A DNA stretch of 64,000 bases from NCBI RefSeq assembly GCF_009914755.1, contig NC_060926.1, one strand, 5' to 3'. The stretch is from the human T2T-CHM13v2.0 reference genome, Homo sapiens. A program made the position numbers and the translations under genes. Below the pieces are notes generated by a model. That model worked only from the letters and a program-made list of their open reading frames with translations. It did no database searches and was not told the origin of the DNA. Shown one piece after another: positions 2,751 to 23,894 of the stretch (its first letter is position 1; each line of letters opens with the position of its first letter).

Positions 2751-5700
2751 ACACTGCAAAAACATGCCAAAATGTAAAGGCCATCAAGGCTAGGAAGAAA
2801 CTGCATCAACTAACGAGCAAAATAACCAGCTAACATCATAATGACAGGACCAAATTCACACATGACAATATTAACTTTAAATGTAAATGGGCTAAATGCT
2901 CCAATTAAAAGGCACAGACTGGCAAATTGGATAAAGAGTCAAGACCCATCAGTGTGCTGTATTCAGGAAACCCATCTCACATGCAGAAACACACATAGGC
3001 TCAAAATAAAGGGATGGAGGAAGATCTACCAAGCAAAAGGAAAACAAAAAAAGGCAGGGATTGCAATCCTAGTCTCGAATAAAACAGACTTTAAAACAAC
3101 AAAGATCAAAAGAGACAAAGAAGGCCATTACATAATGGTAAAGGGATCAATTCAACAAGAAGAACTAACTATCCTAAATATATATGCACCCAATACAGGA
3201 GCACCCAGATTCATAAAGCAAGTCCACAATAATAATGGGAGACTTTAACATCCCACTGTCAACATTAGACAGATCAACGAGACAGAAAGTTAACAAGGAT
3301 ATCCAGGAATTGAACTCAGCTCTGCACCAAGCAGACCTAACAGACATCTACAGAACTCTCCACCCCAAATCAACAGAATATACATTTTTTTCAGCACCAC
3401 ACCACACCTATTCCAAAATTGACCACATACTTGGAAGTAAAGCACTCCTCAGCAAATGTAAAAGAACAGAAATCATAACAAACTGTCTCTCAGACCACAG
3501 TGCAATCAAACTAGAACTCAGGATTAAGAAACTCACTCAAAACTGCTCAACTACATGGAAACTGAACAACCTGCTCCTGAATGACTACTGGGTACATAAC
3601 GAAATGAAGGCAGAAATAAAGATGTTCTTTGTAACCAACGAGAACAAAGACACAACATACCAGAATCTCTGGGACACATTAAAAGCAGTGTGTAGAGGGA
3701 AATTTATAGCACTAAATGCCCACAAGAGAAAGCAGGAAAGATCCAAAATTGACACCCTAACATCACAATCCAAAGAACTAGAAAAGCAAGAGCAAACACA
3801 TTCAAAAGCTAGCAGAAGGCAAGAAATAACTAAGATCAGAGCAGAACTGAAGGAAATAGAGACACAAAAAACCCTTCAAAAATTAATGAATCCAGGAGCT
3901 GGTTTTTTGAAAAGATCAACAAAATTGATAGACTGCTAGCAAGACTAATAAAGAAGAAAAGAGAGAAGAATCAAATAGACGCAATAAAAAATGATAAAGG
4001 GGATATCACCACCGATCCCACAGAAATACAAACTACCATCAGAGAATACTACAAACACCTCTACACAAATAAACTAGAAAATCTAGAAGAAATGGATAAA
4101 TTCCTCGACACATACACCCTCCCAAGACTAAACCAGGAAGAAGTTGAATCTCTGAATAGACCAATAACAGGCTCGGAAATTGTGGCAATAATCAATAGCT
4201 TACCAACAAAAAAAAGCCCAGGACCAGACGGATTCACAGCCGAATTCCACCAGAGGTACAAGGAGGAGCTGGTACCATTCCTTCTGAAACGATTCCAATC
4301 AATAGAAAAAGAGGGAATCCTCCCTAACTCATGTTATGAGGCCAGCATCATCCTGATACCAAAGCCTGGCAGAGACACAACCAAAAAAGAGAATTTTAGA
4401 CCAATATCCTTCATGAACATTGATGCAAAAATCCTCAATAAAATACTGGCAAACCGAATCCAGCAGCACATCAAAAAGCTTATCCACCATGATCAAGTGG
4501 GCTTCATCCCTGGGATGCAAGGCTGGTTCAACATACACAAATCAATAAATGTAATCCAGCATATAAACAGAACCAAAGACAAAAATCACATGATTATCTC
4601 AATAGATGCAGAAAAGGTCTTTGACAAAATTCAACAACGCTTCATGTTAAAAACTCTCAATACATTAGGTATTGATGGGACATATCTCAAAATAATAAGA
4701 GCTATCTATGACAAACCCACAGCCAATACCATACTGAATGGGCAAAAACTGGAAGCATTCTCTTTGAAAACTGGCACAAGACAGGAATGCTCTCTCTCAC
4801 CACTTCTATTCAACATAGTGTTGGAGTTCTGGCCAGGGCAATTAGGCAGGAGAAGGAAATAAAGGGTATTCAATTAGGAAAAGAGGAAGTCAAATTGTCC
4901 CTGTTTGCAGATGACATGATTGTATATCTAGAAAACCCCACTGTCTCAGCCCAAAATCTCCTTAAGCTGATAAGCAACTTCAGCAAAGTCTCAGGATACA
5001 AAATCAATGTATAAAAATCACAAGCATTCTTATACACCAATAACAGACAAACAGAGAGCCAAATCCTGAGTGAACTCCCATTCACAATTGCTTCAAAGAG
5101 AATAAAATACCTAGGAATCCAACTTACAAGGGATGTGAAGGACCACTTCAAGGAGAACTACAAACCACTGCTCAATGAAATAAAAGAGGACACAAAGAAA
5201 TGGAAGAACATTCCATGCTCATGGGTAGGAAGAATCAATATCATGAAAATGGCCATATTGCCCAAGGTAATTTATAGATTCAATGCCATCCCCATCAAGC
5301 TACCAATGACTTTCTTCACAAAATTGGAAAAAACTACTTTAAAGTTCATATGGAACCAAAAAAGAGCCCACATTGCCAAGTCAATCCTAAGCCAAAAGAA
5401 CAAAGCCAGAGGCATCACGCTACCTGACTTCAAACTATCCTACAAGGCTACAGTAACCAAAACAGCATGGTACTGGTACCAAAACGGAGATAGATATAGA
5501 CCAATGGAACAGAACAGAGCGCTCGGAAATAATCCCACATATCTACAACTATCTGATCTTTGACAAACCTGACAAAAACAAGCAATGGGGAAAGGATTCC
5601 CTATTTAATAAATGGTGCTGGGAAAACTGGCTAGCCATATGTAGAAAGCTGAAACTAGATCCCTTCCTTACACCTTATACAAAAATCAATTCAAGATGGA

Positions 5701-6873
5701 TTAAAGACTTACATGTCAGACCTAAAACCATAAAAACCCTAGAAGAAAACCTAGGCAATACCATTCAGGACATAGGCATGGGCAAGGACTTCATGTCTAA
5801 AACACCAAAAGCAATGGCAACAAAAGCCAAAATTGACAAATGGGATCTAATTAAACTAAAGAGCTTCTGCACAGCAAAAGAAACCACCATCAAAGTGAAC
5901 AGGCAACCTACAGAATGGGAGAAAATTTTTGCAACCTACTCATCTGACAAAGGGCTAATATCCAGAATCTACAATGAACTCAAACAAATTTACAAGAAAA
6001 AAACAAACAACCCCATCAAAAAGTGGGCGAAGGATATGAACAGACACTTGTCAAAAGAAGACATTTATGCAGCCAAAAAACACATGAAAAAATGCTCATC
6101 ATCACTGGCCATCAGAGAAATGCAAATAAAAACCACAGTGAGATACCATCTCACACCAGTTAGAATGGTGATCATTAAAAAGTCAGGAAACAACCCAAGT
6201 GCTGGAGAGGATGTGGGGAAATAGCAACACTTTTACACTGTTGGTGGGACTGTAAACTAGTTCAACCATTGTGGAAGTTGGTGTGGCGATTCCTCAGGGA
6301 TCTAGAACTAGAAATACCATTGGACCCAGCCACCCCATTACTGGGCATGTACCCAAAGGATTATAAATCATGCTGCTGTAAAGACACATGCACACGTATG
6401 TTTATTGCGGCACTATTCACAATAGCAAAGACTTGGAACAAACCCAAGTGTCCAACAACGATAGACTGGATTAAGAAAATGTGGCACATATACACCATGG
6501 AATACTATGCAGCCCTAAAAAATGATGAGTTCATGTCCTTTGTAGGGACATGGATGAAGCTAGAAAGCATCATTCTCAGCAAACTATCGCAAAGACAAAA
6601 AACCAAACACCGCATGTTCTCACTCATAGGTGGGAATTGAACAATGAGAACACATGGACACAGGAAGGGGAACATCACACTCCGGGAACTGTTGTAGAGT
6701 TGGGGGAGGGGGGAGGGATAGCATTAGGAGACATACCTAATGCTAAATGACGAGTTAATGGGTGCAGCACACCAACATGGCAAATGTATACATATGTAAC
6801 AAACCTGCACGTTGTGCACATGTATCCTAAAACTTAAGGTATAATAATAATTTTAAAAAAAAGAAAAAAAAAA
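2751..6873 (+). mobile_element. L1PA (L1PA3/4-like) from end of ORF1 through ORF2, 3' UTR and polyA, segment B; inactive
   Basis: ORF1 end (actgcaaaaacatgcc), inter-ORF spacer, ORF2 start MTGPNSH at 2841, ~32-bp deletion at 3225, frameshifts, G-rich 3' UTR, A-tail to 6873; no clear TSD. Confidence 0.95.
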
Positions 6874-7091
6874 GATCCAAAGAAAGGGTGGTAGACAAAG
6901 GTCTAGCTCCTAGGCTGAGGGCCTCAGGGCAGAATGCGGCTTCATCCTGAGTCAATGATCTTCTCAGGTAGTTGCTTCATATATACCCCCTTCCCAACAC
7001 CAGAGCTGCTCTTAGACTGAGGTCAAGTGTGAGCCAGAGATGGCTGGAGATATGAGAACAAGAGCAAAGCGGACAGGAAAGGGCTAGGAGG

Positions 7092-23600: not shown

Positions 23601-23835
23601 CTAGGTGGGAATTGAACAATGAGAACACATGGACACAGGAAGGGGAACATCACACAACGGGGACTGTTGTGGGTTGGGGGAGGGGGGAGGGATAGCATTA
23701 GGAGATATACCTAATGAAATGACGAGTTAATGGGTGCAGCACACCAATATGGCACATGTATACATATGTAACAAACCTGCACATTGTGCACATGTACCCT
23801 AAAACTTAAAGTATAATAATAATAAAAACAAGAAA
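17682..23835 (+). mobile_element. Full-length L1PA4-like LINE-1 (~6.15 kb), ORF1 18709-19725 and ORF2 19789-23615 both disrupted; antisense to SPC25
   Basis: 5' UTR starts ggtggagccaagatggc (YY1 site); ORF1 and ORF2 fragments in the ORF track; 3' UTR and A-tail; 11-bp TSD AAAAAGAGATA at 17671-17681 and 23836-23846 with a TTTT/AAAA endonuclease site; retains the ~129-bp 5' UTR segment (18456-18583) lost in younger L1s. Confidence 0.97.
23376..23381 (-). terminator. SPC25: Antisense AATAAA in L1 ORF2, probable SPC25 polyA signal
   Basis: First minus-strand AATAAA downstream of the SPC25 stop (plus strand tttatt), ~515 nt after TAA. Confidence 0.65.
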
Positions 23836-23894
23836 AAAAAGAGATATGTAATAGAGAAGAAAAATAAACCGTTTTTATATACACTATTTGTATG

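What the first reader, a model, noticed from the sequence alone, without database searches (positions are those of the whole stretch)
2751..23846. ~17-kb L1-bounded segment between NOSTRIN and SPC25: probable NAHR presence/absence polymorphism beside the G6PC2 glucose locus
Seen: two same-orientation L1PA copies (2751-6873 and 17682-23835) share ~4.1 kb of homology at an offset of ~16,975 bp (tttatt at 6401 vs 23376). A crossover would delete ~10.8 kb of intervening DNA plus the only intact L1 5' UTR, and leave a hybrid L1 that still gives SPC25 an equivalent polyA signal. Recalled, unverified: in the primary human reference the NOSTRIN and SPC25 3' ends are only ~5-6 kb apart, which is what that deletion predicts, versus ~23 kb here, and an alternate-locus scaffold covers this region. 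Inference: this window is the ancestral undeleted haplotype, since the intact TSD argues against a new insertion. The SV may be catalogued, but SNP arrays would miss it and it lies ~30 kb from the G6PC2 promoter.
Basis: partly seen in the sequence, partly recalled or inferred. Interest (0 to 1): 0.8.

Follow-up and report, generated by a model that had tools for sequence, protein, structure and literature searches.

The report
L1-to-L1 recombination deletion between NOSTRIN and SPC25
This haplotype keeps about 17 kb of DNA between two similar L1 repeats that the older human reference lacks, an ordinary repeat-mediated deletion variant with no shown link to the nearby glucose gene G6PC2.

Summary
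Two same-strand L1 copies, B (2752-6876) and C (17682-23835, full length, 11-bp target-site duplication), align over 4,160 columns at 96.4% identity. Their register offset is 16,948-16,983 bp.

I could not align to GRCh38. Published build-37 coordinates gave an indirect test. NOSTRIN rs479661 and G6PC2 p.Val219Leu are 42,799 bp apart in b37 but 59,715-59,844 bp apart here, so b37 is 16,916-17,045 bp shorter. An SPC25 array probe shows SPC25-G6PC2 spacing is conserved, which places the missing DNA between NOSTRIN and SPC25. That size brackets the B-C register. If both genes' last exons are kept, both breakpoints must lie in L1.

The 8,160 of 10,806 intervening bases tested are single-copy in this genome, and C's duplication is intact, so the long allele is ancestral.

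Best reading: an in-register L1-L1 recombination deletion in the reference, undeleted here. This is a known kind of variant. GRCh38 state (recalled only), population frequency, the alt scaffold and any G6PC2 link were not tested. Interest is low.

The parts
963..2750 (+). L1 piece A. It is the 3' part of ORF2 and lacks the last ~390 bp and the tail. It abuts B with no target-site duplication. NOSTRIN's annotated 3' end (990) lies inside it.
   Evidence: (96.9% to B and 96.3% to C over 1,790 bp)
2752..6876 (+). L1 piece B. It is 5'-truncated and holds nearly all of ORF2, the 3' UTR and an A-rich tail. It is the left recombination partner.
   Evidence: Pfam Exo_endo_phos and RVT_1 in ORF pieces
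6877..17670 (.). Intervening DNA that would be lost with the deletion. It is single-copy apart from interspersed repeats (Alus at about 9573-9867, 10666-10944, 12415-12593 and 14499-14779).
   Evidence: Four stretches totalling 8,160 of 10,806 bases each gave one full-length match, at their own place.
8964..9053 (-). Alternative SPC25 exon from the hub annotation, inside the deletable segment. It has AG before it and GTAAG after it on the minus strand.
   Evidence: hub gene table; splice sites read
17671..17681 (+). Left copy of C's target-site duplication (AAAAAGAGATA).
17682..23835 (+). L1 C, full length, with 5' UTR, ORF1, ORF2, 3' UTR and A-rich tail. All reading frames are broken. It is the right recombination partner.
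23836..23846 (+). Right copy of C's target-site duplication.
23376..23381 (-). AATAAA on the minus strand inside antisense L1 C, 22 nt upstream of SPC25's annotated 3' end (23354). Paralogous hexamers are at 6401 (B) and 2664 (A).
   Evidence: hub gene table
23354..24019 (-). SPC25 last exon. The 482 nt at its 3' end (23354-23835) are antisense L1 C.
   Evidence: hub gene table

Best explanation
The window carries the long, undeleted allele of an L1-L1 recombination-associated deletion. Three independent insertions of one primate L1 subfamily lie head-to-tail between the 3' ends of NOSTRIN and SPC25. Homologous, in-register recombination between B and C removes the 3' part of B or the matching part of C. 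It also removes the 10.8 kb of unique DNA, C's 5' UTR and ORF1, and C's left target-site duplication. In total this is about 16.95-16.98 kb. What remains is A followed by one chimeric L1 of about 4.1 kb (B on the left, C on the right). Build 37, and by recall GRCh38, carry that short allele. Canonical SPC25 mRNA is unchanged because its polyA signal lies in the retained C part. The losses are an alternative downstream SPC25 exon and non-coding DNA.

Shown: the anatomy, the size deficit in b37 and where it lies, and the single-copy nature of the tested spacer. Inferred: in-register homologous recombination as the mechanism, the long allele as ancestral, and that this is a population polymorphism.
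For: 1. B and C are direct repeats, 96.4% identical over 4.1 kb, with identical tracts up to 182 bp and a register offset of 16,948-16,983 bp.
2. The b37 distance from rs479661 to rs492594 is 42,799 bp (PMC5810227 Table 1). Here it is 59,715-59,844 bp, because G6PC2 codon 219 (GTT) is at 60156 and the NOSTRIN SNP must be one of 58 A/G protein-altering sites at 312-441. The deficit is therefore 16,916-17,045 bp.
3. The SPC25 probe at hg19 169,727,956-169,728,015 (PMC5318640 table) maps, using the G6PC2-side offset, to window 23936-23995. That is inside SPC25's last exon, so the deficit lies left of it.
4. If the annotated last exons of both genes (to 990 and from 23354) are kept in b37, a deletion of that size must start in 991-6438, which is all L1 A or B. 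It must end in 17906-23353, which is all L1 C. This is arithmetic.
5. C's target-site duplication is intact, and four tested spacer stretches occur once in the genome. The long form therefore cannot have been derived from the short one by insertion.
6. Published homology-driven L1 rearrangements involve direct L1PA copies with median similarity 93.5%. Reference deletions of this kind are known to appear as insertions in other genomes (PMC9675761 sections 8, 9 and 12).
7. Recalled, from no call: hg19 NOSTRIN ends at 169,722,024 and SPC25's 3' end is at 169,727,401. That is a 5,377-bp gap against 22,364 bp here, a difference of 16,987 bp. It also puts rs479661 at window 343, where the base is A at the second position of a GAA codon.
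Against: - There was no direct alignment to any other human or ape assembly. The junction, the chimeric L1 and the crossover point were never seen.
- The upper bound on the deficit assumes rs479661 lies in NOSTRIN's last coding exon. If it lay in an upstream exon the deficit would exceed 17.36 kb and would not fit the B-C register.
- The point estimates are 17,014 bp from the SNP pair and 16,987 bp from recalled gene ends. Both exceed the largest register offset (16,983) by 4-31 bp, which needs small extra indels elsewhere.
- The GRCh38 state rests on recall only. Searches for hg38 coordinates in print found nothing usable.
- None listed a paper naming an SV at this locus. Four of the five supplement sets searched had no entry for these genes or chr2 coordinates. 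The fifth had only a distant, non-significant SV for SPC25.
- Population frequency is unknown.
Confidence: 0.78

Rival explanations
1. The reference is shorter by about 17 kb, but the deletion arose by non-homologous repair (end joining or a replication-based mechanism) between two L1s out of register, or between A and C, and not by in-register homologous recombination.
For: In the published set, 60 of 96 LINE-1-mediated rearrangements were non-homologous (PMC9675761 section 8). Left breakpoints in A (991-2750) are allowed by the size constraint. The deficit estimate of 17,014 bp is not exactly a register value.
Against: The 130-bp bracket for the deficit contains the B-C register. For unrelated breakpoints in a 22-kb interval this would happen about 1% of the time, by my estimate. 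The non-homologous L1 events in that paper involve poorly similar elements (median 47.9%), whereas B and C are 96% alike.
Confidence: 0.1
2. The short form is an artefact of the reference, either a clone deletion or an assembly collapse between the L1s, and all people carry the long form. In that case there is no polymorphism.
For: No population data were seen. All the evidence compares two assemblies. An exon inside the segment (8964-9053) is annotated with good splice sites, so the long form is expressed in at least some source material.
Against: Copies 96% identical differ about every 28 bases (149 mismatches in 4,111 aligned positions), so a finished clone assembly should not collapse them. 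This is inference. By recall the same structure persists from GRCh37 to GRCh38. About 15% of L1-mediated human-lineage deletions are reported as polymorphic (PMC9675761 section 12), so a real polymorphism is unremarkable.
Confidence: 0.07
3. The long form is peculiar to this assembly, either a private insertion or rearrangement or a misassembly, and the short form is the normal and ancestral human state.
For: Only one long-form sequence was examined.
Against: The tested spacer stretches occur once in the genome, so there is no donor locus. C has an intact 11-bp target-site duplication spanning the spacer-side and SPC25-side flanks. No known insertion mechanism produces unique DNA plus a properly flanked old L1. 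The three L1s have star-like private changes, 20, 30 and 33 of 1,774 ungapped columns (1,794 aligned, 20 with gaps), as expected for old independent insertions.
Confidence: 0.02

Closest known systems
L1 recombination-associated deletions (L1RADs; Han et al. 2008 PNAS). The title was seen only in reference lists. The paper is not held and its content is recalled.
   Same: Two same-orientation L1s on one chromosome, loss of everything between homologous positions, one chimeric L1 left behind, and the ancestral long form expected in outgroups.
   Different: The junction was not seen here. This allele is not fixed in humans, because this genome keeps the long form. Whether it is on that paper's list could not be checked.
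Homology-driven transposable-element-mediated rearrangements (TEMR-HR), and the 'insertions' that are really reference deletions (Balachandran et al. 2022, PMC9675761; abstract and sections 8, 9 and 12 read, xlsx supplement searched).
   Same: Direct L1PA-type copies. Similarity of 95-96% is above their L1 TEMR-HR median of 93.5%. The reference carries the deleted allele, so the undeleted allele appears as an insertion.
   Different: At about 17 kb, with a full-length partner and three L1s in a row, other registers are also possible (A-B 3.74 kb, A-C 20.7 kb). The locus is absent from their readable supplement: 0 hits for the coordinates or gene names. Their PDF supplements could not be read.
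Polyadenylation sites supplied by transposable elements in 3' UTRs. This is general knowledge, recalled, with no paper read here.
   Same: SPC25's annotated 3' end uses an AATAAA inside antisense L1 C. There is no AATAAA or ATTAAA between the stop codon and the L1.
   Different: This is a side feature and not the finding. The deletion is not expected to alter it.

Membership tests
LINE-1 (L1) retrotransposon copies | ORF2 with endonuclease and reverse-transcriptase domains | tested here: met
   Exo_endo_phos and RVT_1 are above the curated cut-offs in ORF pieces of B (3235-3939, 4092-4862) and C (19789-20871, 21497-22165). Three of the 7 ORF pieces tested had no Pfam hit.
LINE-1 (L1) retrotransposon copies | ORF1 protein domains (in the full-length copy) | tested here: met
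   Transposase_22 (E 6.5e-60), Tnp_22_dsRBD and Tnp_22_trimer in 19126-19725. The frame is broken upstream. Two other open stretches had no hit.
LINE-1 (L1) retrotransposon copies | A-rich tail and target-site duplication | tested here: met
   C has an 11-bp duplication at 17671 and 23836. B has an A-rich tail, but no duplication was found: the longest shared word was 7 bp and A-rich. A has neither a tail nor a duplication.
LINE-1 (L1) retrotransposon copies | Assignment to a named L1PA subfamily | not testable with these tools
No repeat library is on hand. The only data are 96-97% identity to dispersed copies in ORF2 and 92-93% in the 5' UTR.
L1-L1 homologous recombination deletion (L1RAD / TEMR-HR) | Two L1s in direct orientation with high similarity | tested here: met
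   Both are on the + strand, with 96.4% identity over 4,111 aligned bases.
L1-L1 homologous recombination deletion (L1RAD / TEMR-HR) | An alternative allele lacking exactly the register distance | tested here: inconclusive
   The b37 deficit of 16,916-17,045 bp brackets the register of 16,948-16,983 bp. This comes from published coordinates and not from an alignment. The upper bound assumes the NOSTRIN SNP is in the last coding exon.
L1-L1 homologous recombination deletion (L1RAD / TEMR-HR) | One chimeric L1 with a homology tract at the junction | not testable with these tools
   No sequence of the short allele was available in any tool.
L1-L1 homologous recombination deletion (L1RAD / TEMR-HR) | The long form is ancestral (present in outgroups) | not testable with these tools
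   No ape genomes are held. Indirect support only: the intact duplication of C and the tested spacer stretches being single-copy.

The most novel reading that the evidence does not exclude
The 17-kb presence/absence variant is common. By removing the alternative SPC25 downstream exon, C's 5' UTR promoters and 10.8 kb of spacer between two convergent genes, it would alter SPC25, NOSTRIN or G6PC2 regulation. It would then tag or cause one of the independent fasting-glucose or HbA1c signals at the G6PC2-SPC25 locus that SNP-based fine-mapping has not explained.
Probability: 0.04. Interest if true: 0.55.

Novelty: new member of a known kind. Interest (0 to 1): 0.2.

Why it matters
If the variant is common, a 17-kb difference 30 kb from the G6PC2 promoter belongs in fine-mapping and eQTL work at a well-studied glucose locus. 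Reads from the long allele's spacer have nowhere to map on GRCh37/38. Beyond that it is a routine example of repeat-mediated deletion and of a reference genome carrying the derived allele. I found no evidence of a functional effect. In one SV-eQTL table for lymphoblastoid cells, the best SV for SPC25 lay 916 kb away and was not significant (q 0.63; PMC8492059 supplement file 1, passages only). I could not tell whether this SV was among those genotyped there.

Tried and rejected
- Direct comparison with GRCh38, alt scaffolds, pangenome or ape assemblies: no tool holds them. Only the window's own genome could be searched.
- Whole-spacer search of the own genome: swamped by Alu hits. The query's own place was not among the 39 candidates scored, so I repeated it with four repeat-poor stretches. 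The remaining 2,646 spacer bases, mostly Alu, were not tested separately.
- Paper searches for the locus: 3, 0, 13 and 38 papers. From the listings, none is about an SV here. The one I opened for NOSTRIN (PMC2934739, passages) reports SNP association only.
- hg38 coordinates in print: 'SPC25'+'16887' gave 2 papers, both PubMed-id coincidences. 'NOSTRIN'+'16886' gave 0.
- Papers not held: Han 2008, an id I recalled for Audano 2019 and Ebert 2021.
- Supplement searches: no chr2 hit at the hg38 or CHM13 coordinates and no gene name in PMC9675761, PMC12350158 and PMC12350169 (both files cut when stored) or PMC10904011. PDF supplements could not be read and may hold the locus.
- PMC4307976 (G6PC2 coding variants, passages) gave no coordinates.
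- Local homogenisation or local duplication of the three L1s: rejected. Private changes are star-like, 20/30/33, and dispersed copies are just as similar.
- A and B as one tandem duplication: rejected, because the second piece starts earlier in L1 than the first.
- A degenerate duplication flanking A plus B together: only 6 bp are shared exactly. By eye about 15 of 22 positions match, which is too poor for copies about 2% diverged, so I treat it as chance.
- Rfam: 0 matches in 1-24500.
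Full report
**What is in the sequence**

The repeat finder and a BLAST self-comparison show three L1 pieces, not two, all on the + strand:
- A is 963-2750 (1,788 bp).
- B is 2752-6876 (4,125 bp).
- C is 17682-23835, full length.

A aligns to B at 96.9% and to C at 96.3% over 1,790 bp. 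B aligns to C at 95.2% over 4,160 bp. A global B-C alignment has 3,962 matches, 149 mismatches and 49 gap columns out of 4,160. That is 96.4% identity without gaps.

The register offset between B and C changes along the alignment:
- 16,948 bp for B 2752-3220.
- 16,980-16,983 bp for B 3320-5516, after a 32-bp indel.
- 16,978 falling to 16,974 bp towards the tail.

The longest identical tracts are 182, 181 and 164 bp.

C is flanked by an 11-bp target-site duplication, AAAAAGAGATA, at 17671 and 23836. Pfam finds the endonuclease and reverse-transcriptase domains in ORF pieces of both B and C (4 of 7 pieces tested had hits). It also finds the three L1 ORF1 domains in C (1 of 3 open stretches tested). 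No frame is intact; the longest ATG-started ORF is 360 aa.

**Is the similarity special?**

No. A 1-kb piece of C matches 39 of 39 other scored places in this genome at 96-97%. That equals its identity to A and B. C's 5' end matches other full-length copies at 92-93%.

In the region shared by all three pieces there are 1,794 columns, 20 of them with gaps. Private changes number 20 in A, 30 in B and 33 in C, and no column has all three different. This is a star-like pattern. The three pieces are therefore independent insertions of one subfamily, with no sign of local duplication or gene conversion.

I did not assign a subfamily name, because no repeat library was available.

**Does another human assembly lack the segment?**

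I could not align to any other assembly, so I used published coordinates. Table 1 of PMC5810227 (positions stated as b37; passages read) lists two protein-altering variants:
- NOSTRIN rs479661 at chr2:169,721,377 (G/A).
- G6PC2 rs492594, p.Val219Leu, at chr2:169,764,176 (C/G).

These are 42,799 bp apart. In the window, G6PC2 codon 219 is GTT at 60156-60158. NOSTRIN's last coding part is 310-446 and contains 58 positions, spanning 312-441, where an A/G change alters the protein. The same two points are therefore 59,715-59,844 bp apart here. Build 37 is 16,916-17,045 bp shorter.

A microarray table in PMC5318640 (passage read) places an SPC25 probe at hg19 chr2(-):169,727,956-169,728,015. Carried over with the G6PC2-side offset, this is window 23936-23995, inside SPC25's last exon at 23354-24019. 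SPC25-to-G6PC2 spacing is therefore conserved, and the missing 17 kb lies between NOSTRIN's last coding exon and SPC25's last exon.

**Mechanism**

The deficit bracket contains the B-C register. Suppose both genes' annotated last exons (to 990 and from 23354) exist in b37. Then a deletion of that size must begin in 991-6438, which is entirely L1 A or B. It must end in 17906-23353, which is entirely L1 C. Landing within a 130-bp bracket of the register by chance is roughly a 1% event for unrelated breakpoints in a 22-kb interval. That figure is my estimate.

Published homology-driven L1 rearrangements involve direct, mostly L1PA copies with median similarity 93.5% and a median junction homology of 34 bp (PMC9675761 sections 8-9). 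B and C fit that profile well.

My recalled hg19 gene ends come from no call. They are NOSTRIN to 169,722,024 and SPC25 from 169,727,401. They give a 5,377-bp gap against 22,364 bp here, a difference of 16,987 bp. They put rs479661 at window 343, which is an A at the second position of a GAA codon. The recalled NOSTRIN span (78,976 bp) is within 2 bp of the hub's span for this assembly. The estimates slightly favour a crossover in the zone where the offset is 16,978 bp or more (B 3320-6116), but the crossover was not mapped.

**Which form is ancestral?**

Four repeat-poor stretches of the spacer each match only their own place over their full length. They are 7000-9000, 10994-12410, 12600-14490 and 14800-17650, together 8,160 of 10,806 bases. 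All other hits are interspersed repeats of about 550 bp or less. There is therefore no donor locus for the tested stretches.

C's duplication joins the spacer-side flank to the SPC25-side flank. The short form cannot give rise to the long form by any simple event, so the long form is ancestral. This is inference, because no ape sequence was available.

**Consequences**

Canonical SPC25 mRNA should be unaffected. Its AATAAA (23381-23376 on the minus strand) and cleavage site lie in the part of C that a crossover further 5' retains.

The deletion would remove:
- The alternative SPC25 exon at 8964-9053, which has AG and GTAAG splice sites on the minus strand.
- C's 5' UTR and ORF1.
- The spacer.

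Rfam finds nothing in 1-24500. In the SV-eQTL table of PMC8492059 (supplement file 1, passages only), the best SV for SPC25 is 916 kb away with q 0.63. NOSTRIN and G6PC2 do not appear in that table. I cannot tell whether this SV was genotyped there.

**What remains open**

- The GRCh38 state rests on my recall that hg19-to-hg38 offsets are the same (856,510) for NOSTRIN and for rs560887. Searches for hg38 coordinates found nothing usable.
- The alt scaffold, allele frequency, junction sequence and LD with glucose signals were not testable.
- None listed a paper describing an SV here.
- Four of the five supplement sets searched had no entry for these genes or chr2 coordinates. Two of those files were cut when stored. 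The fifth held only the SPC25 eQTL row described above.
- PDF supplements, Han 2008 and Ebert 2021 could not be read.
- PMC9675761 section 12 states that such reference deletions commonly appear as insertions in call sets, and that about 15% of L1-mediated human-lineage deletions are polymorphic.

**Verdict**

This is an ordinary member of a known class, and it is almost certainly present in public SV catalogues that I could not consult. Its only claim to attention is its position next to a well-studied glucose locus.

Noticed in passing
window 963-2750 and junction at 2750/2752: A third same-strand L1 piece (A) abuts B. A stops about 390 bp short of the L1 3' end, and B starts 89 bp before ORF2. 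No target-site duplication marks the junction. This adds two further possible recombination registers: A-B at about 3.74 kb and A-C at about 20.7 kb.
   Followed up: partly
window 963-990: NOSTRIN's annotated 3' end (990) lies 28 bp inside sense-strand L1 piece A. None of 12 common polyA hexamer variants is present in 900-1000 on the + strand.
   Followed up: partly
window 23354-23900: L1 C inserted about 50 bp downstream of the SPC25 stop codon. There is no AATAAA or ATTAAA between the stop and the L1, and the hexamer in use lies in antisense L1 C. SPC25's present 3' end is therefore L1-derived. Candidate older signals lie left of C, for example at 17513 and 17377, inside the deletable segment.
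   Followed up: partly
window 8847-8914: A 26-bp tandem repeat with 2.0-2.7 copies lies just downstream (in the minus sense) of the alternative SPC25 exon 8964-9053.
   Followed up: no
window about 3220-3250 vs 20169-20231: A 32-bp indel between B and C changes the register from 16,948 to 16,980. A crossover on either side of it would give deletion alleles of two slightly different sizes.
   Followed up: no
window 26316-27005: An older, much more diverged L1 3' fragment (65-72% to A, B and C) lies on the same strand in an SPC25 intron.
   Followed up: no
window 940-962 vs 6875-6897: The 5' flank of A and the 3' flank of B resemble each other loosely, about 15 of 22 positions by eye with only 6 bp exact. 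This is probably chance. If real, A and B would be one composite insertion.
   Followed up: partly
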